In this document: positions 12,263 to 60,968 of the stretch, one piece after another
How positions within the stretch are numbered: position 1 is the stretch's first letter
How the letters are laid out: every line of letters begins with the position of its first letter
NCBI GenBank assembly: GCA_036504675.1
Contig: DASXUT010000144.1
Coordinates: 1 to 61,124 of the forward strand
Length of the DNA stretch: 61,124 nucleotides
Direction: 5' to 3'
DNA from: Bacillota bacterium
Lineage (GTDB): Bacteria; Bacillota; Sulfobacillia; JAJYWN01; JAJZPE01
Translations under genes and position numbers: made by a program
The notes under the pieces: generated by a model
What the model was told of the DNA's origin: nothing
Seen by the model: only the letters and a program-made list of their open reading frames with translations
The model's database searches: none

Positions 12263-13531
12263 CTACGGCTCCCGGCGGATGATCGCTCCCAGACCCGTCA
12301 ACTTGACCTCGAACCCATCGTAGCCGCGGTCGATGTGGTCCGTCCCCTTGACCTTGGACACTCCCTCGGCGGCCAGACCGGCGATGACCAGGGCCGCCCC
12401 ACCTCTCAGGTCGGGGACGGTCACTTCGGTCCCTGACAGACTATCCACCCCTTCGACCACGGCGGCCCGCCCCTCGACCCGGATCCTGGCGCCCATCCGG
12501 GTGAGTTCCTCGACGTGGTTGAAGCGCTTGTCGAAGACCGTCTCGGTGATCAGCGAGGTCCCTTCGGTCACGCTCATCAGGGCCATCGCCTGCGGCTGCA
12601 GGTCGGTCGGGAAGCCCGGGTAGGGCAGGGTCTTGAAATCCACCGACCGAAGCCGCCCCGAGGCCCTGGCCTCGAGGGTGTCCCGGCCCTCGCGGATCAG
12701 CAGACCGGCTTCCCGCAACTTGGCCACCGCCGATTCGATGTGGTCCTCGACGATGTTGGCCAGTTCCACGCACCCACCGGTGGCGGCCACGGCGGCCAGC
12801 ATCGTCCCCGCCTCGATGCGGTCCGGGATGACTGAATGCTCCGCGCCGTGCAGGCGCCTGACCCCGTCAATCCGGATGGAGTCCGAACCGGCTCCCCTGA
12901 CCTGAGCCCCCATCGAGTTGAGGAAGTTCTGCAGGTCGACGATCTCCGGCTCGCGGGCCGTGTTGCGGATGATCGTCGTCCCCTCGGCCAGGACGGCGGC
13001 CATCATGATGTTCTCGGTCGCGCCGACGCTCGGGAAGTCGAGATGGACCTCGTTCCCGGTGAGGTTTGGAGCCTCGGCCTCGATGCGGCCATAACGCTCC
13101 CTGAACCTGGCCCCGAGCGCCGAAAGCCCCCTCAGGTGAAGGTCGATCGGTCGCGGGCCGATGGCGCAACCACCCGGGTAGGTCACCGTCACCCGGCCCA
13201 GCCGACCGAGGAGGGGCCCCATGACGAAGATGGACGAGCGCATCTGGCCCATCAGGTCGCTGGGACCGATGTGCGTCCGGAACTGCCCTGCCTTGGTCGA
13301 AATGCTCCGCCTGCGGCCCCCTTCGGAGGTCCGGGTCTCGACTTCGACCCCGAGGTACCGGAGGATGTCGAGCATGACCGTCACATCGCGCAGTTCCGGA
13401 ACCTCATGGATCAGGCACTCCTCCGGACAGAGCAACGCCGCGGCCAGGATCGGCAGGATGGCGTTCTTCGCCCCACTGATCCTGACCTGCCCCGAAAGCC
13501 GGTGCCCGCCCTCAATAACAAAAGAGCCCAC
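12263..13531 (-). CDS. murA: UDP-N-acetylglucosamine 1-carboxyvinyltransferase
   Basis: ISGAKNAILPILAAALL and YPGGCAIGPRPIDLHL (active-site Cys loop). Confidence 0.93.
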   Translation of the reverse strand: MGSFVIEGGHRLSGQVRISGAKNAILPILAAALLCPEECLIHEVPELRDVTVMLDILRYLGVEVETRTSEGGRRRSISTKAGQFRTHIGPSDLMGQMRSSIFVMGPLLGRLGRVTVTYPGGCAIGPRPIDLHLRGLSALGARFRERYGRIEAEAPNLTGNEVHLDFPSVGATENIMMAAVLAEGTTIIRNTAREPEIVDLQNFLNSMGAQVRGAGSDSIRIDGVRRLHGAEHSVIPDRIEAGTMLAAVAATGGCVELANIVEDHIESAVAKLREAGLLIREGRDTLEARASGRLRSVDFKTLPYPGFPTDLQPQAMALMSVTEGTSLITETVFDKRFNHVEELTRMGARIRVEGRAAVVEGVDSLSGTEVTVPDLRGGAALVIAGLAAEGVSKVKGTDHIDRGYDGFEVKLTGLGAIIRREP

Positions 13532-13635
13532 ATGGCCACCCCCGATGACGCACCACCTGAACGGCTGCCCACTATCATACGCGGGCCCACCGGGATTGTG
13601 AGCCAGAGTGGCGGGCGCTCCCCGGAGACGAGCGG

Positions 13636-15015
13636 CTAGGGGCCCTGGAGCACGCGGAGCAGTTCCGGTCCTAGGTTGGTGACGTTGCCGGCACCGACGG
13701 TCAGGACGAGGTCTCCGGGTCGGACGTCGCGGGCAAGGGTCTCGACGAGCTCTTCGCGATGGCAGTGGTAAGAGACGTGCTTGTAGCCGGAGGCCGCGAC
13801 CTGATCCAAGATGGTCCGGCCGCTGACCCCCGGGATGGGCAGTTCCCCGGCCGGGTAGATGTCCATCAGATAAAGCTGGTCGGCCGCGGTGAAGGCCCCT
13901 CCGAACTGGCCGGCCAGGTGCTGGGTTCGAGTGTAGCGGTGGGGCTGGAAGACGCAGATGACCCGACCATATCCGAGCTGGCGGGCCGACCGCAGGGTGG
14001 CGGCGATCTCCGTGGGATGATGGGCGTAATCGTCGACGATGGTCACCCCGCGGGCCTCCCCGACTTTCTGGAAGCGCCTCTCCGCGCCGGTGAAACCCTT
14101 GAGGGCCGTGGCGATGTCCACGAAGCTGAGCCCGGCCTCGAGGCCGACGGCCACGGCGGCCAGGGCATCCTGGACGTTGTGCCGACCGGGGACGGCCAGC
14201 TCCAAACGGCCCAGTTGCTTCCCCCGCAGGTAGGCCGTACAGCTCGTCCCGATCCCGCGCAGCCCGATGGCCGAGGTCGTCAGGTCGGCCTTCTCATCCA
14301 GCGCGTAGGTGACCTTGCGGCCGCCGTGGCGACCGCCGATCTGGCGGACCCATTCGTTGTCGTAACCCAGGACGGCCAAGCCGGCCTGAGGCAGGCGCCG
14401 CAGGAACGCCTCGAAGGCCTCGATGATGTGGCCCAGGTCTCCGTAGTGGTCGAGGTGGTCGGCCTCGATGTTGGTGACCACCGCGATCACCGGGGACAGG
14501 TCCAAGAAGGAACCGTCGCTCTCGTCGGCCTCGGCCACGACGTAGGCCCCGCGGCCCAAGGCGGCGTTGGTGCCGAGGTCGCGGACCTCCCCGCCGACGA
14601 CAAAGGTCGGGTCCAACCCGGCGCCCTCCATCATCAGGGCGATCATCGACGAGGTCGTCGTCTTACCGTGGCAGCCGGCCACCGCCACGCCGCGGCCGGT
14701 GCGCATGATCTCGGCCAGGACCTCCGCTCTCCGCCGGATGGGCAGCCCCGATCGACGGGCCGCGTCCAACTCCTCGTTCCCCGGCCGGATGGCCGAAGAA
14801 ACGACGACCACGTCAGGGCGATCCCCCCCAGCGGGCCCGGCCAGGTTATCGGCCCGGTGGCCGAGCTTGACCTCGGCCCCCATCCCGGTCAGGCGGCGGG
14901 TATTGGCCGACGCGGCCAGGTCTGAGCCACTCACCCGGTGCCCCATCTGCAAGAGGACCTTGGCGATGCCGCTCATCCCCGACCCGCCGATGCCAATGAA
15001 GTGATAGTGGCTCAA
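13636..15015 (-). CDS. murC: UDP-N-acetylmuramate--L-alanine ligase
   Basis: HFIGIGGSGMSGIAKVL and AVAGCHGKTTTSSM. The MurC-type N-terminus rules out MurD. Confidence 0.93.
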   Translation of the reverse strand: MSHYHFIGIGGSGMSGIAKVLLQMGHRVSGSDLAASANTRRLTGMGAEVKLGHRADNLAGPAGGDRPDVVVVSSAIRPGNEELDAARRSGLPIRRRAEVLAEIMRTGRGVAVAGCHGKTTTSSMIALMMEGAGLDPTFVVGGEVRDLGTNAALGRGAYVVAEADESDGSFLDLSPVIAVVTNIEADHLDHYGDLGHIIEAFEAFLRRLPQAGLAVLGYDNEWVRQIGGRHGGRKVTYALDEKADLTTSAIGLRGIGTSCTAYLRGKQLGRLELAVPGRHNVQDALAAVAVGLEAGLSFVDIATALKGFTGAERRFQKVGEARGVTIVDDYAHHPTEIAATLRSARQLGYGRVICVFQPHRYTRTQHLAGQFGGAFTAADQLYLMDIYPAGELPIPGVSGRTILDQVAASGYKHVSYHCHREELVETLARDVRPGDLVLTVGAGNVTNLGPELLRVLQGP

Positions 15016-32353: not shown

Positions 32354-33298
32354 TCAGCGGCTTAGGTAGTCGACGATACCCTCGGCGATTCCGTCGGCGG
32401 CCTTGGCCCGGAAGTCATCATCCTTGAGGGCCAGGGCGTCGTCACGGTTGCTCAGGAAGCCCACCTCGACCAAGACCGAGGCGCTCAGAGAGCTGTTGCG
32501 GATGACGTAGAAGTCGGCCGTCTGCAGGCCGCGATTCTGCAGGCCGGTGGAGGCGACCAGTGACGACTGGATGGCCGAAGCCAGGCCACGGTTGTCCGCG
32601 GTGTGGCCATTGCCGGTCGAGTAGAACGTCATCGCCCCGCGGACCTGGTTACTCTGGTCGTAGAAGTTGTTGTGGAGGCTGACGAAGATGTCGGCCCCAG
32701 CCTTGTTGGCGATGGACGTCCTGACCGCCAGTTGTCCCGCCGCGTTGCCGGGGAAGTACATCCCGGTCCGGGTCATGTAGACCTTCGCCCCGGCCTGGGT
32801 CAGAAGACTCCGGACCCGGTTGGCGATAGCCAGGACATTCGTGGCTTCGTCGGAGCCGAACCCAGAGGCCCCGCTGCCGGCGGTGCCGTGCCCGGGGTCA
32901 ACGACCACGCTCCTGCCGGCCAGGGGTTGTCGGTCCCCGCCGCGCGACGGTTCAGGCGACGGGGTGGGGGCCGGCTTGGGGGCCGGGGTCGGCGCGGGGG
33001 CCGGGGTCGGCTTGGGGGCTGGGGTCGGCGCGGGCTTGGGGGCGGTCACCGGCGCGGATGGGGCCTGCGAGTCGGTGGGAGCGGCCGGCTCAGCCGGCGG
33101 CGTGACCGACGGCTCCGCGGCCGCCTGCCCCGGGTCGATCGGGGCCCGGCCGGTCCCAGCCAGGACGACGGTAGCCGTCATCAACCAGGCCACCAGGATC
33201 GTCGCTCCAACGATTCTCAGATACGGGAGCTGGAGATGCGCCGGGGTCCTCCCCGACGACGCCCGCGCGGGCTTGGCGCGCTTGGGCTCATCGGCCAT
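32354..33298 (-). CDS. N-acetylmuramoyl-L-alanine amidase (Amidase_3) with TM anchor and Pro-rich linker
   Basis: VVVDPGHG, DIFVSLHNN and VLVEVGFLSNRDD blocks. The PAPTPAPKPTPAPAPTPAPKPAPTPSP linker is encoded by imperfect DNA repeats at about 32960-33050. Confidence 0.88.
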   Translation of the reverse strand: MADEPKRAKPARASSGRTPAHLQLPYLRIVGATILVAWLMTATVVLAGTGRAPIDPGQAAAEPSVTPPAEPAAPTDSQAPSAPVTAPKPAPTPAPKPTPAPAPTPAPKPAPTPSPEPSRGGDRQPLAGRSVVVDPGHGTAGSGASGFGSDEATNVLAIANRVRSLLTQAGAKVYMTRTGMYFPGNAAGQLAVRTSIANKAGADIFVSLHNNFYDQSNQVRGAMTFYSTGNGHTADNRGLASAIQSSLVASTGLQNRGLQTADFYVIRNSSLSASVLVEVGFLSNRDDALALKDDDFRAKAADGIAEGIVDYLSR

Positions 33299-33317
33299 TG
33301 GGTAAGCTACCTCCTTC

Positions 33318-33492
33318 GTCTGCCTCCGGGGTTAGCTGTCGGGTTAGGTGGAAGGAACGCCTGGCGGACTGGACGTTGACCGCTGGTCATCAGCGCAACG
33401 GCGCAACCGCCTTCACCCCGAGTCGCCATTTACGGCTCAAAGCCGCGACGACTGTTTCTCCCCCGTACCGCCAGAGCTTCGGATGACCCAGG
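33318..33492 (-). promoter_or_regulatory. Cyclic-di-AMP riboswitch (ydaO-yuaA class)
   Basis: The minus-strand RNA contains GGUACGGGGGAG, UCGGGGUGAAGG and CACCUAACCCGACAGCUAACCCCGGAGGCAG. These closely match the two pseudo-symmetric cores and the 3' block ACCCGACAGCUAACUCCGGAGGCA of known ydaO RNAs. It ends directly at the amidase SD (gaaggagg). Confidence 0.8.
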
Positions 33493-33679
33493 ATCGCGGT
33501 CTCAAGCGCTGGCGGATTCGGCTAGATGGGCTTTCAATTCGACAATCGGGCCAGCTATCCTGCCATTTTTGGCAAACTGGGGGACAGCTGGCTGGTGGTA
33601 ATTTCGGCCAAATTTAGGGCCCGGGTGACAACTCTTCTCGGCAAGTCAGCGGTCCGCCGGTCCAGACCGGCGGACCAAG

Positions 33680-55824: not shown

Positions 55825-55854
55825 AAGTGGAAAAGGGCGCCCGGACGGGCGCCT
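55825..55854 (-). terminator. Intrinsic terminator closing the sulfur-carrier operon
   Basis: ggcgccc / gggcgcc stem (55836-55853) with a 4-nt loop, followed by cuuuuccacuuuu on the minus strand. Confidence 0.65.
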
Positions 55855-55895
55855 ACCCATCGGCGCCATGAAGCGCCCCTGGGTTCGTTCCACCT

Positions 55896-56648
55896 CTAGA
55901 CCATGGCAATCGGGGGCAGCCGGCGCTTGTGCTCACTCCCGGTCATCCGGGACCGGATCTTGGCGACCACGTCGGCGGGTCCATTCCCGGTCAGGAGGAA
56001 CTCATCGAGCTGGGCATAGGTCAGGCCCATCTCCCCCTCGTCGGTCTGCCCCGGCCAAAGGCCGGCGGTCGGCGGCTTATCGACGACCCTGACCGGCACG
56101 CCGAGTTCCCTGGCGACCTCGCGGACCTCGGCCTTGACCAGGTTGCCCAGGGGAAGCAGGTCCACTCCTCCGTCGCCGTACTTGGTGAAGTAGCCCATCG
56201 CCAGCTCACTGCGGTTCCCCGTGCCGATCACCAGGTAGCCCCGGAGATTGGCGTGGTAATAGACGGTCATCATTCGCAGCCTGGGCTTGATGTTGGCCAG
56301 GGCGAGGGCCTCGGACGAACCCCCGGGCGGTGGCGGTCCTTCGGCCATCCCGAGGACCTCGATGAAGCGGTCATAGATGGGGCTCAGGTCGACGGTCTTG
56401 ATCGGGACCCCGAGCGCTGAAGCGACCAGAAGGGCATCCTCCTGGTCGACGGGTTGGCTGTGGCAAGGCATGATGAGGCCGAGGCAGCCGTCGGGAAAGG
56501 CGCGCCGACAAAGGCCGGCCACGACCGCCGAGTCGATCCCCCCGGACAGGCCGAAGGCGCAGCCCTTGCCGCCGGCCGCCGTGACCTGGTCCCTGATCCA
56601 TCGGACCAGGCGGTCGACCCGTCCGGCGACGTCAGTCATCGGTGTCAC
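55896..56648 (-). CDS. nadE: NH3-dependent NAD+ synthetase (PP-loop)
   Basis: FGLSGGIDSAVVAGL, GTGNRSELAMGYFTKYGDGG and KPPTAGLWPGQTDE. The start overlaps the upstream LarE-like gene stop. Confidence 0.85.
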   Translation of the reverse strand: MTPMTDVAGRVDRLVRWIRDQVTAAGGKGCAFGLSGGIDSAVVAGLCRRAFPDGCLGLIMPCHSQPVDQEDALLVASALGVPIKTVDLSPIYDRFIEVLGMAEGPPPPGGSSEALALANIKPRLRMMTVYYHANLRGYLVIGTGNRSELAMGYFTKYGDGGVDLLPLGNLVKAEVREVARELGVPVRVVDKPPTAGLWPGQTDEGEMGLTYAQLDEFLLTGNGPADVVAKIRSRMTGSEHKRRLPPIAMV

Positions 56649-57538
56649 GACGATCCGCCCTTTCGTGTCCCCTTCAGAGTCTCGTTCATGCTCCCCGTGC
56701 GGTATCCCCCGAGGTCCATCGTCACGTAGGTGAACCCGAGCTCCTTCAAGCGGGCGGCGACCCGCTCACGAGCCTCGACGAGCCGGGCCATATCACCGGG
56801 CGCGACTTCGATTCGGGCCACGTCTCCGTGATTCCTCACCCGGAGTTGCCCCAGACCCAGCTGATGGAGGAACTGTTCCGCTCCGGCCACCCGCTTGAGT
56901 TCCGGTCGGGTGATCCGCCGCCCGTACGGGAAACGCGAAGCGAGGCAGGCCAGGGCCGGCTTGTCCCAGGTGGGCAGGGCGTGGGCGCGCGACAAGGCCC
57001 GGATGTCGGCCTTGCCAAGCCCGGCCTCCAAGAGCGGACTTCTGACCCCCAACTCCGCCGCCGCCTGGCGGCCCGGCCGGTGATCGGACAGATCGTCGGC
57101 GTTGGTACCGTCGAGGACCGACCCGAGCCCCTTCGTCCGAGCGATCTCGGCCAACTTCCCAAAGAGCTCTTGCTTGCAGTAGTAGCAGCGGTTTGACGGG
57201 TTGACGGCGAACTCCTCGTTCTCGAGTTCCGCCGTCTCGATGAGCTCGAACCGCACCCCGAAGGCGGTGGCCAGGTCCCGGGCGGCGACGATCTCCTCAG
57301 GGAAATAGGTCTCCGATGAGGCGGTGACCGCCAGGACCCGTTCTCCGAGGGCTTCTTTGGCCTCCCAGAGCAGGAGGGTGCTATCGACACCGCCGGAGAA
57401 GGCCACCACCGCCCCGCCCAGCCCGGCCAGGACCTCGCGGAGATGGGCCTCCTTCTCGGCCAGCTCCGGCCCGATCGACTGGCCGGCGTTCACGACGGTG
57501 GGCTGGCCCAAGCGAAACGCACCTACCCTCTCAACCAC
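56645..57538 (-). CDS. larE: LarE-like PP-loop ATP-dependent sulfur transferase (three-Cys, Fe-S-type pattern)
   Basis: VAFSGGVDSTLL, NRCYYCKQELF and PALACLASRFPYG, plus the C-terminal LRVRNHGDVARIEV, which is typical of the LarE family. The GTG start is uncertain. Confidence 0.75.
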   Translation of the reverse strand: MVERVGAFRLGQPTVVNAGQSIGPELAEKEAHLREVLAGLGGAVVAFSGGVDSTLLLWEAKEALGERVLAVTASSETYFPEEIVAARDLATAFGVRFELIETAELENEEFAVNPSNRCYYCKQELFGKLAEIARTKGLGSVLDGTNADDLSDHRPGRQAAAELGVRSPLLEAGLGKADIRALSRAHALPTWDKPALACLASRFPYGRRITRPELKRVAGAEQFLHQLGLGQLRVRNHGDVARIEVAPGDMARLVEARERVAARLKELGFTYVTMDLGGYRTGSMNETLKGTRKGGSS

Positions 57539-57851
57539 AAGTATTCCCGCCGCAACAGCCGCCGTGGCCGGCGTGGGGCGGGGGCTCGGCCGGGGCCTCT
57601 CCCGACTGGGCCCCGTCTTTCAAGACCAGCAGACGGAAGCACGGCCCTTCGGGGGTGATCCTAACCACCAGGTGGCCGGCCCCCTTCAGGCTCCTGGGGA
57701 CATCGCGAACCGGCTGCCCGTCGTCAAGGAGCACCGAAAGATACCCCCCGCTGGGGATATCCTCCAAGGCCAGCATGGTGTGGATAAAAGTATAAGGGCA
57801 GAACTCGCCGCGCAGGTCGAGTTGGGGAACCTCACGATTATCTTGGTCCAT
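57531..57851 (-). CDS. TusA/SirA-like sulfur carrier with a Cys-rich C-terminal tail
   Basis: LDLRGEFCPYTF....L......G..L.VLLDD......VPRSL...GH is the TusA pattern. The tail is HAGHGGCCGGNTCG. The ATG at 57851 is preceded by gaagggag. Confidence 0.7.
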   Translation of the reverse strand: MDQDNREVPQLDLRGEFCPYTFIHTMLALEDIPSGGYLSVLLDDGQPVRDVPRSLKGAGHLVVRITPEGPCFRLLVLKDGAQSGEAPAEPPPHAGHGGCCGGNTCG

Positions 57852-58269
57852 TCTCCGGACTCCCTTCAACGATCAGCGACGCCTCCTCCACCCGGCCGTC
57901 GACGATGTGGAAGGCCCTGACCGCCGGCTCCCCTCGGAGGGAGACGATCACCTGAAAGGCCTCCGGGTAGTAAGCCAGCCGGACATCCTTCGGCGAGGGT
58001 CTGGCGTCGCTGGTCGGGTGGGAGTGGTAGATGGCGGTCAGCTCCAGGCCGTCCCGCTCCATCTCCTGCATCACTCGGAACTGGTCCTCCGGGTCGACTC
58101 GGTAGTCGAAGGGGCTTCCCTCGACGTTCCTCACCTTGCAGACCCGGGTGACCCGGCCGCCGAGACCGACCAGGAGCCCGCAGGCCTCGTTCGGCCGCTC
58201 GTCCAGGCAGTGGACGATGATCTCACGCATTTGTCCCGCCGACAGGCGGAGCGCCGCAGAATGCTTCAT
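57838..58269 (-). CDS. JAMM/MPN+ metalloprotease (Mec+/HcyD/QbsD-like)
   Basis: The E-x-CG ... HSHPTSDARPSPKD motif is a complete JAMM motif (E, HxH, S, D). Confidence 0.85.
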   Translation of the reverse strand: MKHSAALRLSAGQMREIIVHCLDERPNEACGLLVGLGGRVTRVCKVRNVEGSPFDYRVDPEDQFRVMQEMERDGLELTAIYHSHPTSDARPSPKDVRLAYYPEAFQVIVSLRGEPAVRAFHIVDGRVEEASLIVEGSPENGPR

Positions 58270-59140
58270 AATCGATCAATCCCTTGATGGTCGGGTGGTC
58301 TCCGCAGACCGCGCAACCGAGGTCGCTCCGCAGCCGGACTTCGTCGAACCGCATTGACAGGCCGTCGAAGAGGAGCAGGCGGCCGGCCAGGGTCTGTCCG
58401 GCTCCCGTCAGGAGCTTGAGCGTCTCCAGCGCCTGGATGGTGCCGATGATCCCGGGCACGGGTCCGAGGACGCCGGCTTCCTGGCAGCTGGGGACCGTGC
58501 CGGGAGCCGGTGGGGACGGATAAAGGCAACGGTAGCAGGGGCCCGCCCCCGGGATGAAGGTGCTGGCCTGCCCCTCGAAACGGAGGACACTGCCGTGGAC
58601 GAAGGGCCGCTTGGTCAACACGCAGGCGTCGTTGATCAGGTATCGGGTGGTGAAATTGTCGGTAGCGTCGACGATGACATCGTACCCGGCGAACAGCTCG
58701 AGGGCGTTGGCGCTCGTCAGACGGCCGTCGTGGGCGACCACCTCGATGTCCGGGTTCAGCCGGTCGAGCTTCTCTTTGGCCGACTCGACCTTCAATCGCC
58801 CGACGTCAGGCGTGTGGTGGATGATCTGCCGCCCAAGGTTGGAGAGGTCGACCGTGTCGCCGTCGATGATCCCGAGGCGGCCGACCCCGGCCGCGGCCAG
58901 GTAGCAGGCGGCCGGTGAGCCGAGCCCGCCGGTGCCGACGATCAGGACCCGACCGGCGGCGATCTTCCGCTGGCCGGCCGGACCGATCTCAGGCAGCAGC
59001 ATGTGCCGCGAATAGCGCTTGATCTGATCGGAGCTGAGACCGCCCCGACCTGGAGAACGTGTTCCTTGCTCTCCCATTGGTGGCCCTCCCTCCTTGGGCT
59101 TTTCCGCCTCAATCCTAACCGTCCGCGAACGGGCTGTCAA
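58223..59140 (-). CDS. ThiF/MoeB-type E1-like adenylyltransferase, no rhodanese domain
   Basis: YSRHMLLPEIG..GQ.K.....VLIVGTGGLGSP, two CxxC pairs (CYRC, CAVC) and SCQEAGVLG. TTG start overlapping the carrier stop; the ATG at 59077 is the alternative. Confidence 0.88.
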   Translation of the reverse strand: MTARSRTVRIEAEKPKEGGPPMGEQGTRSPGRGGLSSDQIKRYSRHMLLPEIGPAGQRKIAAGRVLIVGTGGLGSPAACYLAAAGVGRLGIIDGDTVDLSNLGRQIIHHTPDVGRLKVESAKEKLDRLNPDIEVVAHDGRLTSANALELFAGYDVIVDATDNFTTRYLINDACVLTKRPFVHGSVLRFEGQASTFIPGAGPCYRCLYPSPPAPGTVPSCQEAGVLGPVPGIIGTIQALETLKLLTGAGQTLAGRLLLFDGLSMRFDEVRLRSDLGCAVCGDHPTIKGLIDYEAFCGAPPVGGTNA

Positions 59141-59439
59141 CCGAACCGCGGCCGGGGAGCCCCGCCGGCGATGGCCGGGATGATCGAGACCTCATCGCCG
59201 TCCTTCAGCAGGGTGGTGAGACCGTCGGCGAAACGGACATCCTCCTGGTTGACGTAGATGTTGATGAACCGACGGATGTTCCCGCCCTCGTCGAGGAGCT
59301 TCCCGGCAAAGCCGGGGTAGTCCTGGTCGAGCTGGCGGATGAGTCCGCCGACGGTCCCGGCCTCCACCGAAAGCTCGGCCGAGTTCCCGGCCATCCGGCG
59401 CAGCGGGGTCGGGATTCGTACTTTGCAGCTCAAGGTCAA
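59137..59439 (-). CDS. CysO/MoaD/ThiS-family ubiquitin-fold sulfur carrier with a 7-residue extension after the Gly-Gly
   Basis: KVRIPTPLR.....FINIYVNQEDVRFADGLTTLLKDGDEVSIIPAIAGG is collinear with M. tuberculosis CysO as I recall it. The protein ends ...AGG-APRPRFG. A TTGA overlap links it to the ThrC-like gene. Confidence 0.85.
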   Translation of the reverse strand: MTLSCKVRIPTPLRRMAGNSAELSVEAGTVGGLIRQLDQDYPGFAGKLLDEGGNIRRFINIYVNQEDVRFADGLTTLLKDGDEVSIIPAIAGGAPRPRFG

Positions 59440-60674
59440 GCCCCCTCCTTTTGGCGCAGGGTCTTCTCGAACTCCTCGAAGCGCGGCTCAATGGCCCCGG
59501 GAGCGCCGGCCAGGCAGCCGTCGATGGCCTCCACCGTCTTCAGACCGTTGCCGGTGATGTAGGCCACGGTCACTCCCTCCACGTCCAGCCGCCCTTGCTC
59601 GGCCAGTTTCCGCAGGACGGCCACGGTCACTCCGCCGGCCGTCTCGGTGAAGACCCCCTCGGTCCGAGCCAGGAGCCGCATGCCGTCGACAATCTGGTCG
59701 TCGCTCACGTCGTCGATGTACCCGCCGGTCCTTCTCACCGTGCGCAGGGCGTACTCGCCGTCGGCCGGACTGCCGATGGCCAGGGACTTGGCGATGGTCG
59801 CCGGCTTGACCGGACTGACCACCTCGGCCCCGGCCTTGAAGGCCCGGGCCACCGGGGCGCACCCGGTCGCCTGGGCGCCATAGACCCTCGGTTCCTTCCC
59901 CTCGACCAGCCCCAGCTTGAGGAGTTCACGGAAGCCCTTGTTGATCTTGGTCAGGACCGAACCGCCGGCGATCGGCGAGACGACCTGATCCGGGATCTTC
60001 CAGCCGAGTTGCTCGGCGGTCTCGTAGGCCAGGGTCTTCGAGCCTTCGGAGTAGAAGGCCCGGAGGTTGATGTTGACGAAGGCCCACCCGTAGCGGTCGG
60101 CGACTTCGCTGGCCAACCGGTTGACTTCATCGTAGTTGCCCCTGACCGTGACCAGGTTGGGCTGGTAGATCAAGGTCCCCAGGACCTTCCCCACCTCGAG
60201 CCCAGCCGGGATGAAGACATAGCACTTCAAACCGGCCCGCGCGGCGTGGGCGGCGACCGAATTGGCCAGGTTGCCCGTGGAGGCGCAGGCGACGGTGTCG
60301 AAACCGAACTCGATGGCCTTGGAGACGGCCACGCTGACGACCCGGTCCTTGAAGGAGTAGGTCGGGTTGACCGAGTCATTCTTCAGGTAGAGGTTCCTCA
60401 GACCGAGTTCCCGCCCGAGGTTCTCGGCCCTCAGCAGCGGGGTGAAGCCGGTCCCCAGGTCGATCACCCGCTGGCCGTCAACGGGCAGGAGTGACCGGTA
60501 CCGCCACATCGACGGCGGCCCGCTCTCGATGGAGAAGCGACTGACGGCCGCCCTCAGGGCGTCATAATCGTAGTCGACCTCGAGCGGTCCAAAACACTCG
60601 GAGCAAATGCTGATCGGGCCGACCGGGTAGGTCTGGCCGCATTCGCGGCACCTCAGCCCTTTGACGTAAGACAC
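59436..60674 (-). CDS. Threonine-synthase-family PLP enzyme with an N-terminal zinc ribbon (candidate homocysteine synthase)
   Basis: LRCRECGQTYP....CSECFGPLEV and NPTYSFKDR (PLP lysine). Collinear with the short archaeal-type ThrC. Start moved from 60815 to the GTG at 60674, which has an aaggggggg SD, because 60690-60910 is a riboswitch plus terminator. Confidence 0.85.
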   Translation of the reverse strand: MSYVKGLRCRECGQTYPVGPISICSECFGPLEVDYDYDALRAAVSRFSIESGPPSMWRYRSLLPVDGQRVIDLGTGFTPLLRAENLGRELGLRNLYLKNDSVNPTYSFKDRVVSVAVSKAIEFGFDTVACASTGNLANSVAAHAARAGLKCYVFIPAGLEVGKVLGTLIYQPNLVTVRGNYDEVNRLASEVADRYGWAFVNINLRAFYSEGSKTLAYETAEQLGWKIPDQVVSPIAGGSVLTKINKGFRELLKLGLVEGKEPRVYGAQATGCAPVARAFKAGAEVVSPVKPATIAKSLAIGSPADGEYALRTVRRTGGYIDDVSDDQIVDGMRLLARTEGVFTETAGGVTVAVLRKLAEQGRLDVEGVTVAYITGNGLKTVEAIDGCLAGAPGAIEPRFEEFEKTLRQKEGA

Positions 60675-60689
60675 GCCGAACCCCCCCTT

Positions 60690-60725
60690 AGAAAAATCAA
60701 AGACCTCTTCCGGACGGAAGAGGTC
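60690..60725 (-). terminator. Expression-platform terminator of the SAM-I riboswitch
   Basis: gaccucuuccg / cggaagagguc stem (60702-60725) followed by uuugauuuuu. It lies immediately upstream of the SD and GTG. Confidence 0.8.
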
Positions 60726-60764
60726 GAAATGACCAAAGCCACGAAGGGCGCGGTCGGATCGCCT

Positions 60765-60910
60765 CCTCTCATCTTTCAGGACGCCGCCACTAGGCGTTCC
60801 TGTCGGAGTTGGCACCTTTTCCCCGCCGCCCGGCCTGATGGAAGCCGGGGGCTGCGGACGGTTGCCGAGGCTTCATCGGGCCGTTCCCTTCGCCTCTCTG
60901 GATAAGGGAG
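60765..60910 (-). promoter_or_regulatory. SAM-I (S-box) riboswitch aptamer
   Basis: The minus-strand RNA reads CUUAUCCAGAGAGGCGAAGGGAACGGCCCGAUGAAGCCUCGGCAACC...GGUGCCAACUCCGACAGG...CUGAAAGAUGAG. This reproduces the S-box consensus CUUAUCAAGAGAGGUGGAGGGACUGGCCCGAUGAAACCCGGCAACC..GGUGCUAAUUCC.GCAG..CUG..AGAUAAG. Confidence 0.9.
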
Positions 60911-60939
60911 CAATTGCTGCTATTTGGTTGTTGGAACCT

Positions 60940-60968
60940 ATATTAGCACCCCCAGGGGGTATCGTCAA
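60940..60968 (-). promoter_or_regulatory. Sigma-A promoter of the riboswitch operon (TTGACG-17-TAATAT)
   Basis: Minus strand ttgacg (60968-60963), 17 nt spacer, taatat (60945-60940). It lies about 25 nt upstream of the aptamer P1. Confidence 0.6.

What the first reader, a model, noticed from the sequence alone, without database searches (positions are those of the whole stretch)
55825..60968. SAM-riboswitch operon linking a ThrC-family PLP enzyme to a CysO-like sulfur carrier, E1, JAMM protease, TusA-like and LarE-like proteins: a candidate protein-thiocarboxylate route to homocysteine/methionine
Seen in the sequence:
- Seven minus-strand genes have overlapping or abutting stop and start codons: ThrC-like 59436-60674, CysO/MoaD-like 59137-59439, ThiF/MoeB E1 58223-59140, JAMM 57838-58269, TusA-like 57531-57851, LarE-like 56645-57538, NadE 55896-56648.
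- They are bracketed by a promoter, SAM-I aptamer and terminator (60690-60968) on one side and an intrinsic terminator (55825-55854) on the other.

Established knowledge: carrier + E1 + JAMM sets deliver sulfur as a protein thiocarboxylate in CysO-CysM-Mec-MoeZ (M. tuberculosis cysteine), HcyS-HcyD-HcyF-MetY (Wolinella homocysteine) and QbsE-QbsD-QbsC. SAM-I riboswitches control methionine/SAM genes.

Inference: here the PLP partner is a threonine synthase homologue, whose normal substrate is O-phosphohomoserine, rather than CysM or MetY. The likely chemistry is gamma-replacement of phosphate by the carrier thiocarboxylate to give homocysteine. The JAMM enzyme would mature or release the carrier.

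From memory, a ThrC-homologue route from O-phosphohomoserine has been reported in actinomycetes (MetM/MetO). This is unverified. I cannot tell whether the present seven-gene architecture, in a sporulating Bacillota genome, has been described.
Basis: partly seen in the sequence, partly recalled or inferred. Interest (0 to 1): 0.85.

Follow-up and report, generated by a model that had tools for sequence, protein, structure and literature searches.

The report
SAM-controlled MetM/MetO homocysteine operon
This is a real SAM-riboswitch-controlled gene cluster that most likely makes homocysteine from O-phosphohomoserine using a sulfur-carrier protein, but this MetM/MetO pathway was described in Streptomyces in 2024, so only its extra sulfur-supply genes (TusA, LarE) are new.

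Summary
A SAM-I riboswitch (79 bits) with a terminator and antiterminator precedes seven tightly packed minus-strand genes: ThrC-like, ThiS/MoaD-like carrier, ThiF-type E1, JAMM peptidase, TusA-like, LarE and NadE. One correction: E1 most likely starts at 59077, which leaves a 59-nt spacer holding a conserved promoter-like element.

The ThrC-like protein is not a canonical threonine synthase. It belongs to a very large clade, 58-83% identical across more than 15 phyla. In 76 of 80 genome loci a CysO-like carrier lies next to or near the gene. The clade carries its own active-site signature and an N-terminal zinc ribbon. In some genomes it coexists with a canonical thrC (38% identity) directly beside thrB. 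An actinomycete (Nonomuraea) has the same SAM riboswitch-ThrC-like-carrier layout at 57% and 55% identity. This matches the published MetM/MetO route (Hasebe 2024, now included in GapMind).

E1, JAMM, TusA and sulfite reductase are variable accessories of the module. LarE and NadE are lineage-specific add-ons. LarE looks like a genuine [4Fe-4S] LarE. Whether it draws sulfur from this relay is the one open and novel question.

The parts
60940..60968 (-). sigma-70-type promoter-like site, TTGACG-17-(TG)TAATAT
   Evidence: Consensus match only. It lies about 30 nt upstream of the aptamer.
60766..60908 (-). SAM-I (S-box) riboswitch aptamer
   Evidence: RF00162, 79.2 bits (gathering score 44.4), E = 5e-17, model positions 1-108 of 108.
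60692..60776 (-). Expression platform: terminator hairpin 60725-60702 plus U-tract, and an antiterminator formed by the P1 3' strand and following bases (about 60776-60760) pairing with the terminator 5' arm
59436..60674 (-). MetM-type ThrC-family PLP enzyme (412 aa, GTG start, N-terminal CxxC...CxxC ribbon); predicted carrier-thiocarboxylate-dependent homocysteine synthase
   Evidence: PALP 238 bits; 58-83% identical to 86 carrier-linked homologues; 38% to canonical ThrC; carries the whole MetM-type signature.
59137..59439 (-). MetO/CysO-type ThiS/MoaD sulfur-carrier protein (100 aa), ending ...PAIAGG followed by APRPRFG
   Evidence: PF02597 67 bits; best solved relative is M. tuberculosis CysO (3dwg_C, E = 2e-21).
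59112..59140 (-). Internal promoter-like site TTGACA-17-TAGGAT in the metO 3' end and metO-E1 spacer
   Evidence: Both hexamers are conserved in L001 and L082, while the rest of the spacer has diverged. The -35 hexamer overlaps the metO stop codon, so part of its conservation may be coding constraint.
58223..59077 (-). ThiF/MoeB/UbaA-type E1 adenylyltransferase (284 aa from ATG 59077) with two CxxC zinc motifs and no rhodanese domain
   Evidence: PF00899 285 bits; MoeB, MoeZ and UbaA models all score below their cut-offs; only the ThiF domain is present.
57838..58269 (-). JAMM/MPN+ metallopeptidase (Mec/HcyD-like); motif E..HSHPTSDARPSPKD intact; start at 58269 or 58230
57531..57851 (-). TusA-like sulfur-relay protein (106 aa) with the conserved Cys-Pro and a Cys-rich tail GGCCGGNTCG
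   Evidence: PF01206, 58 bits. In relatives L001, L082 and L083 this domain is fused to a small sulfite-reductase module.
56645..57538 (-). LarE, [4Fe-4S]-type (PP-loop SGGVDS; CYYC...C motif)
   Evidence: TIGR00268, 335 bits, cut-off 150. (clear match to L. plantarum LarE, E = 4e-55 over residues 17-280; Ser180 and Arg212/214 equivalents conserved). Motif definition from PMC9283937.
55896..56648 (-). NH3-dependent NAD+ synthetase NadE (250 aa)
   Evidence: PF02540 237 bits; TIGR00552 236 bits.
55825..55853 (-). Terminator-like hairpin GGCGCCC-GUCC-GGGCGCC plus CUUUUCC after nadE
   Evidence: z = -4.0. The U-tract is too short for the scan. yebC follows with its own promoter-like site at 55824-55795.

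Best explanation
This is a self-contained version of the MetM/MetO protein-thiocarboxylate pathway for homocysteine, controlled by a transcription-terminating SAM-I riboswitch.

1. When SAM is high, the aptamer locks the P1 3' strand, the terminator forms and transcription stops before metM. When SAM is low, the P1 3' strand pairs with the terminator 5' arm and transcription reads through. The structures are computed; the regulation is inferred.
2. The carrier is made as a precursor with seven residues after Gly-Gly. The JAMM peptidase trims them (inferred).
3. The rhodanese-less E1 adenylates the terminal Gly (inferred from family).
4. Sulfur arrives as a persulfide on the TusA-like protein, or as sulfide, and gives carrier-COSH. 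Close relatives have a sulfite reductase fused to TusA here. This step is inferred from gene context.
5. The MetM-type PLP enzyme replaces the phosphate of O-phosphohomoserine with the carrier thiocarboxylate. Homocysteine is then released, probably after an S-to-N acyl shift and JAMM hydrolysis, as in the CysO/Mec and HcyS/HcyD systems. This is inferred by homology to the characterised Streptomyces system.
6. LarE and NadE are genuine nickel-pincer-cofactor and NAD enzymes. They share the transcription unit only in this lineage. Together with E1, JAMM and TusA they are probably also expressed from an internal promoter.
For: Riboswitch:
- The aptamer, terminator and antiterminator are all present.

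The ThrC-like protein belongs to a distinct, carrier-linked clade:
- The carrier gene lies next to or near the ThrC-like gene in 76 of 80 genome loci from Bacillota, Chloroflexota, Nitrospinota, Nitrospirota, Armatimonadota, Cyanobacteria, Actinomycetota and archaea. Identity to the window protein is 58-82%.
- A SAM-I riboswitch precedes the ThrC-like gene in several phyla: L001, L002, L044 and L082 (Bacillota), L004 and L023 (Chloroflexota), L052 (Methylomirabilota), L093 and L160, and the actinomycete Nonomuraea (L167).
- Nonomuraea has riboswitch-ThrC-like (57%)-carrier (55%) with no E1 or JAMM nearby. This is the layout reported for Streptomyces metM-metO (PMC12172450).
- Canonical thrC coexists with the MetM-type gene. 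In L078 and L033 the order is ask-hom-thrC-thrB-MetM-MetO, with 38% identity between the two paralogues. thrB also abuts MetM in L068, and hom lies nearby in L044.
- 38 positions are at least 95% conserved in the 86 MetM-type sequences and differ in the canonical ThrC of L033 and L078. The motifs checked also differ in four solved ThrCs. They include KDRVV vs KDRGM, STGNL vs STGNT and AGGS vs GNAGN. The N-terminal zinc ribbon is also absent from the solved ThrCs.

Accessory proteins:
- The carrier's best solved relative is CysO.
- 49 of the carrier homologues carry 1-9 extra residues after GG, so processing is common.
- The JAMM motif is intact.
- TusA and/or sulfite reductase sit beside the module in several lineages: Sir-TusA fusions in L001, L082 and L083; Sir in L009; 2 x Sir plus TusA in L071 and L073; TusA in L054; TusA in L039.

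Literature:
- The pathway is summarised in bioRxiv 10.1101/2024.10.14.618325.
Against: - There is no biochemical or genetic data for this organism.
- The S. albulus MetM sequence could not be obtained, so orthology to the characterised enzyme is indirect.
- The rest of the genome is not available. I could not check whether it has a canonical thrC, thrB or the classical metA/metX/metY genes. The window contains none of these.
- NadE is normally essential, which fits poorly with SAM-only control. This is why an internal promoter is invoked, and that promoter is only a conserved consensus match.
- The Microcystis homologue studied in PMC12172450 showed threonine synthase and deaminase activity and no clear MetM activity in vitro with Na2S.
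Confidence: 0.8

Rival explanations
1. The sulfur relay of this operon (TusA persulfide and/or carrier thiocarboxylate) also feeds the [4Fe-4S] LarE. The unit would then supply sulfur to two acceptors, homocysteine and the nickel-pincer nucleotide cofactor, in the way TtuB-COSH feeds the [4Fe-4S] enzyme TtuA. This extends the best explanation rather than excluding it.
For: - LarE directly follows JAMM or TusA in two separately arranged gene orders. The first is the window lineage (window, L001, L082, L083; in L084 it is JAMM-LarE-NadE). The second is L093 and L160: Rrf2-CysM-[CysO fused to E1]-JAMM-LarE, convergent with SAM riboswitch-MetM-MetO.
- Another close LarE homologue sits behind a cysteine desulfurase and MnmA (L170), so LarE tends to sit next to sulfur donors.
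- The physiological donor of Fe-S LarE is unknown. E. coli IscS works in vitro, Na2S does not, and the authors themselves draw the TtuA-TtuB parallel (PMC9283937).
- No paper in the held library links LarE to TusA or to thiocarboxylate carriers.
Against: - Only 5 of 85 LarE loci, from 2 lineages, show the association. Twelve have larB/larC, and most have neither.
- Only 1 of 80 MetM loci has LarE.
- Shared synteny with yebC, bofC and ruvCAB in this clade could explain the adjacency without any functional link.
- No larB, larC or larA is visible in the window.
Confidence: 0.25
2. LarE and NadE are functionally unrelated passengers. The locus would be two units placed side by side by local synteny: a riboswitch-controlled metM-metO(-E1-JAMM-TusA) unit, and a housekeeping (JAMM-)larE-nadE unit driven by its own promoter.
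For: - L084 has JAMM-LarE-NadE-YebC with its own TTGTGC...TATAAT promoter, no riboswitch, and no MetM, carrier or E1.
- LarE homologues at 62-63% identity lie in larB-larE(-larC) clusters.
- The LarE substrate-binding residues are conserved.
- The internal promoter-like site is conserved.
Against: - In the window the TusA-LarE and LarE-NadE junctions overlap or are less than 25 nt apart, with no terminator before 55853. The genes are therefore co-transcribed with the sulfur-relay genes.
- LarE recurs next to JAMM in a differently organised locus (L093).
Confidence: 0.45
3. The LarE-like PP-loop enzyme, not the E1, is the enzyme that thiocarboxylates the carrier. It would use the same carboxylate-to-thiocarboxylate chemistry that LarE performs on its nucleotide substrate.
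For: - LarE chemistry is AMPylation of a carboxylate followed by sulfur attack (PMC9283937).
- A different PP-loop ATPase (ThiI/HUP plus NFACT-R_2) sits between MetM and TusA-MetO in L039, which has no E1 on its contig.
Against: - The window already encodes a complete E1 with its zinc motifs.
- The P2CMN-phosphate ligands (Ser180 and Arg212/214 equivalents) are conserved, and 63% identical homologues lie in lar clusters.
- The L039 contig is only 6.6 kb, so an E1 may lie elsewhere.
Confidence: 0.05
4. The ThrC-like protein is an ordinary threonine synthase, as automated annotation says. The carrier, E1 and JAMM genes would then serve another thiolation pathway such as cysteine, molybdopterin, thiamin or tRNA.
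For: - It passes TIGR00260 thrC (302 bits, cut-off 167) and NF006050 (307 bits, cut-off 303).
- All database homologues are named threonine synthase.
- The carrier's nearest solved relative is the cysteine-pathway carrier CysO.
- CysM-type genes flank the module in 43 of 81 loci.
- The Microcystis homologue showed ThrC and deaminase activity (PMC12172450).
Against: - Control by SAM rather than by threonine.
- Near-universal adjacency to the carrier gene.
- Coexistence with a canonical thrC at 38% identity in the same threonine operon.
- Clade-specific changes in active-site loops.
- NF006050 scores only 196 bits on the canonical ThrC of L078, so that model appears to describe the MetM type.
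- GapMind states that MetM is often misannotated as threonine synthase.
Confidence: 0.04

Closest known systems
MetM/MetO of Streptomyces albulus (Hasebe et al. 2024, Appl Environ Microbiol 90:e01247-24; summarised in bioRxiv 10.1101/2024.10.14.618325 and PMC12172450)
   Same: A ThrC-homologous PLP enzyme next to a MoaD/CysO-like carrier gene, preceded by a SAM riboswitch. The proposed chemistry is O-phosphohomoserine plus carrier-COSH giving homocysteine. The actinomycete Nonomuraea has this layout, with 57% and 55% identity to the window proteins.
   Different: In Streptomyces the activating enzyme is MoeZ (an E1 fused to a rhodanese domain), and the peptidase Mec is listed as a separate pathway step. 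In Nonomuraea neither gene lies near metM-metO. Here a rhodanese-less E1, a JAMM peptidase and a TusA-like protein are encoded in cis, and LarE and NadE are appended. The carrier has a 7-residue C-terminal extension. Direct sequence comparison with S. albulus MetM was not possible.
HcyS-HcyD-HcyF-MetY(-Sir) of Wolinella succinogenes (Krishnamoorthy and Begley 2011, JACS 133:379; cited in PMC5764234; details from my own knowledge)
   Same: A carrier with a C-terminal extension, a JAMM peptidase that trims it and releases homocysteine, and a dedicated E1. A sulfite reductase in the cluster supplies the sulfur; relatives of the window lineage have a sulfite reductase fused to TusA.
   Different: The PLP partner there is MetY (fold type I), which acts on O-acetylhomoserine. 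Here it is a ThrC-family (fold type II) enzyme, presumed to act on O-phosphohomoserine.
CysO-CysM-Mec-MoeZ of Mycobacterium tuberculosis
   Same: The carrier is most similar to CysO among solved structures (3dwg_C, E = 2e-21). The JAMM and E1 logic is the same, and the PLP enzyme is fold type II and acts on a phosphorylated amino acid. Many MetM loci also encode a CysM-type enzyme (43 of 81).
   Different: The product there is cysteine, made from O-phosphoserine. The window operon has no CysM. Regulation here is by SAM. The E1 lacks the rhodanese domain of MoeZ.
[4Fe-4S] LarE of Thermotoga maritima, and TtuA-TtuB of Thermus thermophilus (PMC9283937)
   Same: The window LarE has the SGGxDS PP-loop and the CxxC...C cluster motif that define Fe-S LarE. 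TtuA is the precedent for a [4Fe-4S] PP-loop enzyme that takes sulfur from a carrier thiocarboxylate.
   Different: No LarE has been shown to use a carrier thiocarboxylate or TusA. T. maritima larE is not next to its candidate sulfur donors (its two cysteine desulfurase genes lie distant), whereas here larE sits inside a thiocarboxylate/TusA operon.

Membership tests
MetM (carrier-thiocarboxylate-dependent homocysteine synthase) | ThrC-family, fold-type-II PLP enzyme with the Schiff-base lysine motif | tested here: met
   PF00291 238 bits; the SFKDR motif aligns with the PLP-lysine motif of solved ThrCs.
MetM (carrier-thiocarboxylate-dependent homocysteine synthase) | Gene adjacent to a MoaD/ThiS-type carrier gene (metO) | tested here: met
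   Stop and start overlap at 59436-59439. The carrier gene lies next to or near the ThrC-like gene in 76 of 80 homologous loci.
MetM (carrier-thiocarboxylate-dependent homocysteine synthase) | SAM riboswitch upstream, as reported for S. albulus metM | tested here: met
   It recurs in 10 other loci from several phyla, including an actinomycete. The S. albulus feature is reported in PMC12172450.
MetM (carrier-thiocarboxylate-dependent homocysteine synthase) | A clade separate from canonical threonine synthase | tested here: met
   57-83% identity to carrier-linked homologues against 38% to the co-resident canonical ThrC. 38 clade-specific positions and an N-terminal zinc ribbon.
MetM (carrier-thiocarboxylate-dependent homocysteine synthase) | Direct sequence orthology to the characterised S. 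albulus MetM | tested here: inconclusive
   The sequence could not be obtained. The paper is not held, and the last homology search returned only Streptosporangiales. Indirect evidence: 57% identity to the Nonomuraea homologue in the same layout. Published figures for S. albulus MetM are 51.6% identity to the Microcystis homologue and 33% to B. subtilis ThrC.
MetM (carrier-thiocarboxylate-dependent homocysteine synthase) | Catalyses O-phosphohomoserine + carrier-COSH -> homocysteine | not testable with these tools
   Requires enzymology.
MetO/CysO-type sulfur carrier | Beta-grasp ThiS/MoaD domain ending in Gly-Gly | tested here: met
   PF02597 67 bits; conserved ...SIIPAIAGG. Here GG is followed by APRPRFG, so proteolytic maturation is required.
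SAM-I riboswitch (RF00162) with terminator platform | Full aptamer above the gathering score, plus mutually exclusive terminator and antiterminator | tested here: met
MoeZ (E1 fused to rhodanese) | C-terminal rhodanese domain carrying the persulfide | tested here: not met
   Only the ThiF domain is present, at residues 43-272 of the 305-aa TTG-start ORF (284 aa from ATG 59077). The MoeZ model NF005902 scores 342 bits against a cut-off of 647 and aligns only to model positions 14-275 of 392. The protein is a MoeB/ThiF/UbaA-type E1.
Mec/HcyD-type JAMM peptidase | E...HxHx7Sx2D metal-binding motif | tested here: met
   EACG ... HSHPTSDARPSPKD; PF14464 80 bits; solved relatives are 2kks and JAMM1 5ld9.
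HcyS/HcyD/HcyF/MetY system | The PLP partner is MetY (O-acetylhomoserine sulfhydrylase, fold type I) | tested here: not met
   The PLP partner is ThrC-family. The operon works like this system but is not a member of it.
LarE ([4Fe-4S] type) | SGGxDS PP-loop, CxxC...C cluster ligands, and P2CMN-phosphate ligands (Ser180, Arg212, Arg214 of L. plantarum LarE) | tested here: met
   FSGGVDST; NRCYYCK...ALACLASRF; LRVRNH aligns with VRVRFH. The motifs are defined in PMC9283937. TIGR00268 scores 335 bits against a cut-off of 150.
LarE ([4Fe-4S] type) | larB and larC (and a LarA-family user) present in the same genome | not testable with these tools
   None is in the 61-kb window. The rest of the genome is unavailable.
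TusA | TusA fold with the conserved Cys-Pro persulfide site | tested here: met
   PF01206 58 bits; LDLRGEFCPYT.

The most novel reading that the evidence does not exclude
In this lineage the thiocarboxylate/TusA relay would be the physiological sulfur donor for a [4Fe-4S] LarE. One SAM-linked sulfur-carrier system would then feed both homocysteine synthesis (through MetM) and nickel-pincer nucleotide cofactor synthesis (through LarE). This would identify the missing in-vivo sulfur source of Fe-S LarE enzymes and give a second TtuA/TtuB-like partnership.
Probability: 0.25. Interest if true: 0.6.

Novelty: new member of a known kind. Interest (0 to 1): 0.4.

Why it matters
- The MetM/MetO route is only two years old and has been characterised only in Streptomyces. 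The data here show that the same module is very widespread, across Bacillota, Chloroflexota, Nitrospinota, Nitrospirota, Armatimonadota, Cyanobacteria, Actinomycetota and archaea.
- The module is highly conserved, and every database name I saw for it was "threonine synthase". Metabolic reconstructions will therefore miss a methionine pathway and may over-count thrC.
- The window is a compact example in which the activation, maturation and sulfur-delivery genes are all in cis. That makes it a convenient system for in-vitro reconstitution.
- Comparison across loci shows which accessories are interchangeable: a rhodanese-fused E1 versus TusA, a sulfite reductase, and CysM sharing the carrier.
- The LarE link, if real, would answer an open question about how the nickel-pincer cofactor gets its sulfur.

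Tried and rejected
- Hasebe 2024 (PMC11497804) and Krishnamoorthy and Begley 2011 (PMC3089676) are not held. I relied on papers that cite them.
- I tried to obtain a Streptomyces MetM sequence. A tblastn against PLSDB found only Nonomuraea above 50% identity. A homology search seeded with the Nonomuraea protein returned only Streptosporangiales in its top 120 hits.
- There is no solved MetM structure. The nearest PDB entries are canonical ThrCs.
- I looked in the window for thrC, thrB, hom, metA/X/Y and larB/C. By ORF inspection and spot Pfam checks, the rest of the window holds the dcw cell-division cluster, sporulation genes, 2-oxoacid:ferredoxin oxidoreductase, methylmalonyl-CoA genes, tgt/queA and ruvABC.
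- I rejected the idea that LarE is a diverged paralogue with a new substrate. Its substrate-binding residues are conserved, and homologues at 62-63% identity lie in larB-larE(-larC) clusters.
- I considered that the generic terminator scan might support the operon boundaries statistically. It does not: it found 2 sites against 3.8 expected. The leader terminator is supported instead by its position and by the antiterminator.
- A search for earlier S-box, thrC and moaD literature found nothing in the held library.

Full report
**1. Observation**

Rfam finds a complete SAM-I aptamer at 60766-60908 on the minus strand, scoring 79.2 bits against a gathering score of 44.4 (E = 5e-17). Upstream is a TTGACG-17-TAATAT promoter-like site with an extended TG at 60968-60940. 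Downstream is a 10-bp hairpin at 60725-60702 followed by UUUGAUUUUU.

When the 3' arm of the terminator is left out of the fold, its 5' arm pairs with GAUGAGAGGAGGCG. That stretch contains the P1 3' strand. The duplex energy is -19 kcal/mol. This is the classic S-box choice between terminator and antiterminator.

Seven minus-strand ORFs follow. Their family assignments hold:

| Gene | Coordinates | Family evidence |
|---|---|---|
| ThrC-like | 59436-60674 | PALP; TIGR00260 thrC |
| Carrier | 59137-59439 | ThiS/MoaD |
| E1 | 58223-59077 | ThiF |
| JAMM peptidase | 57838-58269 | Prok-JAB |
| TusA-like | 57531-57851 | TusA |
| LarE | 56645-57538 | TIGR00268, 335 bits |
| NadE | 55896-56648 | NAD synthase |

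A hairpin with a short U-tract at 55853-55825 closes the unit (fold z = -4.0). yebC follows with its own promoter-like site.

- E1 most likely starts at ATG 59077, behind AAGGAGGGAGGG, and not at TTG 59140. This leaves a 59-nt spacer after the carrier gene.
- That spacer holds a TTGACA-17-TAGGAT site. Both hexamers are conserved in two relatives, while the rest of the spacer has diverged.
- The starts of JAMM, LarE and NadE are each uncertain by 9-39 nt.

**2. What the ThrC-like protein is**

A homology search returned thousands of proteins. The best 120 are 62-83% identical, come from many phyla, and every name a source gave them is "threonine synthase". A genome scan gave 80 loci at 58-82% identity, from Bacillota, Chloroflexota, Nitrospinota, Nitrospirota, Armatimonadota, Cyanobacteria, Actinomycetota, deltaproteobacterial MAGs, Aquificota and archaea.

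I ran tblastn with the seven window proteins against these loci:
- The carrier gene lies next to or near the ThrC-like gene in 76 of 80.
- An E1 is nearby in 47.
- A JAMM is nearby in 11.
- A TusA-like gene is nearby in 5.
- LarE and NadE appear only in L001, the closest relative.

A SAM-I riboswitch precedes the ThrC-like gene in L001, L002, L004, L023, L044, L052, L082, L093 and L160.

The actinomycete Nonomuraea gerenzanensis has SAM riboswitch-ThrC-like (57%)-carrier (55%) with no E1 or JAMM nearby. This is the arrangement reported for Streptomyces metM-metO (PMC12172450).

In Ktedonobacter (L078) and a related Chloroflexota MAG (L033) the gene order is aspartate kinase, homoserine dehydrogenase, canonical thrC, thrB, MetM-type gene, carrier. 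The canonical copy is only 38% identical to the window protein. It lacks the N-terminal ribbon and scores 196 bits on NCBIfam NF006050 (cut-off 303), where the window protein scores 307 bits. thrB also abuts the MetM-type gene in L068.

I aligned 86 MetM-type sequences with the canonical ThrC of L033 and L078. Thirty-eight positions are at least 95% conserved in the MetM type and differ in these two canonical sequences. I read the main motifs against four solved ThrCs (2zsj, 1uim, 6cgq, 2d1f), and they differ there too:

| MetM type | Canonical ThrC |
|---|---|
| KDRVV | KDRGM |
| STGNL | STGNT |
| NINxRPYY | N-SVNPxR |
| AGGS | GNAGN |
| AKSxAIGNPADG | ATAIxIGNPAS |

The window protein carries the whole MetM-type signature. 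The alternative that it is an ordinary thrC is therefore very unlikely.

**3. Literature**

Hasebe et al. 2024 described MetM, a ThrC homologue, and MetO, a sulfur carrier, in Streptomyces albulus. Together they convert O-phospho-L-homoserine to homocysteine, and a SAM riboswitch lies upstream of metM. I could not read the paper itself. It is summarised in three sources:
- PMC12172450.
- bioRxiv 10.1101/2024.10.14.618325. This lists the steps MetO, Mec, MoeZ and MetM, and notes that MetM is often misannotated as threonine synthase.
- bioRxiv 10.64898/2026.09.15.751699.

**4. The accessory proteins**

- **Carrier.** Among solved structures it is most similar to M. tuberculosis CysO (3dwg_C, E = 2e-21). 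Its homologues end in a conserved ...SI(I/V)PAIAGG. Of the carrier-like hits across the held loci, 33 stop there and 49 carry 1-9 more residues. The window protein carries seven, APRPRFG. It must therefore be trimmed before adenylation.
- **JAMM peptidase.** The metal-binding motif HSHPTSDARPSPKD is intact.
- **E1.** It has two CxxC zinc motifs but no rhodanese domain. The persulfide-carrying function that the rhodanese domain provides in MoeZ must come from elsewhere.
- **TusA-like protein.** It is the obvious candidate for that function. In the closest relatives (L001, L082, L083) the same TusA domain is the C-terminal part of a 402-426-aa protein. The N-terminal part of that protein is a small sulfite reductase: NIR_SIR_ferr, NIR_SIR and a ferredoxin domain.
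- **Recurrence of sulfite reductase and TusA.** Sulfite-reductase-like genes also flank the module in an Actinomycetota MAG (L009) and in archaeal loci (L071, L073). These archaeal loci and L054 also carry TusA. A deltaproteobacterial locus (L039) has two TusA genes.
- **Parallel.** The Wolinella HcyS/HcyD/HcyF/MetY cluster also uses a sulfite reductase as its sulfur source (my own knowledge; the paper is cited in PMC5764234).
- **Cysteine synthase.** In 43 of 81 loci a CysM-type cysteine synthase flanks the module. The carrier and E1 therefore probably often serve both cysteine and homocysteine synthesis.

**5. LarE and NadE**

The LarE-like protein aligns over residues 17-280 with L. plantarum LarE (E = 4e-55). 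It has the SGGxDS PP-loop. It has the CxxC...C motif that defines [4Fe-4S] LarE enzymes. It also has the Ser180 and Arg212/214 equivalents that bind the substrate phosphate (PMC9283937). Homologues at 62-63% identity sit in larB-larE(-larC) clusters (L085, L169). It is therefore most likely a genuine LarE.

Among 85 LarE loci, 12 have larB/larC nearby and 5 have a thiocarboxylate module. Those five fall into two differently arranged gene orders:
- The window lineage.
- L093 and L160: Rrf2-CysM-[ThiS domain fused to E1]-JAMM-LarE, convergent with SAM riboswitch-MetM-MetO.

A more distant relative (L084) has only JAMM-LarE-NadE-YebC, with its own promoter and no riboswitch. Another LarE sits behind a cysteine desulfurase and MnmA (L170).

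Two readings remain open. LarE and NadE may be passengers held in place by local synteny and expressed from the internal promoter. Alternatively, LarE may draw its sulfur from this relay, as TtuA does from TtuB. The physiological sulfur donor of Fe-S LarE is unknown, and no paper in the held library links LarE to TusA or to a thiocarboxylate carrier. I give the second reading about 25%.

**6. Mechanism and what is shown**

- Computed from the sequence: the riboswitch and its alternative structures, the gene content, the clade membership and the conserved gene context.
- Inferred by homology to characterised systems: carrier trimming by JAMM, adenylation by E1, thiocarboxylate formation, gamma-replacement on O-phosphohomoserine by MetM, and release of homocysteine.
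- Inferred from context only: TusA as the sulfur relay, and the internal promoter.
- Not testable here: enzyme activities, the rest of the genome (a canonical thrC, thrB, the classical met genes, larB/larC) and in-vivo regulation.

**7. Verdict**

However, it is a new member of a known kind, the MetM/MetO protein-thiocarboxylate homocysteine pathway under SAM-I control. It differs in two ways: a self-contained accessory set (rhodanese-less E1, JAMM, TusA) and a lineage-specific LarE-NadE tail. Its value lies in three things. It shows how widespread and how consistently misannotated this pathway is. It is a compact system for reconstitution. It also raises the untested possibility of a link to LarE sulfur supply.

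Noticed in passing
window 33306-33494 (-) and 32354-33298 (-): A c-di-AMP (ydaO-type) riboswitch, RF00379 at 42.4 bits, lies directly upstream of an N-acetylmuramoyl-L-alanine amidase gene (Amidase_3). This is a typical cell-wall target of this riboswitch class.
   Followed up: partly
L001:6115-7323; L082:6609-7889; L083:6652-7932: In the closest relatives the TusA domain is fused to an N-terminal small sulfite-reductase module (NIR_SIR_ferr + NIR_SIR + 4Fe-4S ferredoxin). The window has only the stand-alone TusA domain, with a Cys-rich tail.
   Followed up: partly
L008, L011-L014, L022, L024-L026, L029-L031, L040, L043, L053, L074, L077 and others: In Nitrospinota the module reads CysM-type synthase, MetM, MetO, E1, then a second CysK/M-like gene. 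In all, 43 of 81 MetM loci carry a CysM-type gene. One carrier and E1 probably serve both cysteine and homocysteine synthesis.
   Followed up: partly
L093:4308-5618; L160:4691-5848; L056, L058, L069: A ThiS/MoaD carrier domain is fused in frame to the N-terminus of the E1 (ThiS + ThiF in one ORF) and followed by a JAMM gene. The carrier would have to be cut out at its Gly-Gly.
   Followed up: no
L039:4741-5319; L021 and L010 carrier genes: The MetO-type carrier is fused after its Gly-Gly to a C-terminal extension. In L039 this is confirmed as a NIL domain, the domain also found in methionine transporters and in the archaeal DUF39/NIL-ferredoxin homocysteine pathway. L021 has a similar C-terminal sequence; the L010 extension was not characterised.
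   Followed up: no
L039:3473-4516: A different PP-loop ATPase (ThiI/HUP domain + NFACT-R_2) sits between MetM and TusA-MetO in a deltaproteobacterial MAG that shows no E1 on its 6.6-kb contig.
   Followed up: no
NCBIfam NF006050 (PRK08197) scored on window 59436-60674 and on L078:7137-8237: The 'threonine synthase' equivalog NF006050 scores 307 bits (cut-off 303) on the MetM-type protein but 196 bits on a canonical ThrC. It probably models MetM-type proteins and spreads the misannotation.
   Followed up: partly
L084:5592-7646: A more distant relative keeps only JAMM-LarE-NadE-YebC in the same syntenic position (yunB upstream, bofC downstream). It has its own sigma-A-like promoter, no riboswitch, and no MetM, carrier or E1.
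   Followed up: partly
L071:11509-11979 and 13038-13943; L054; L073: The archaeal MetM loci carry a conserved CxxCxxCC-domain protein between the carrier and E1, and a DUF169 protein after TusA. Neither has a known role in this pathway.
   Followed up: no
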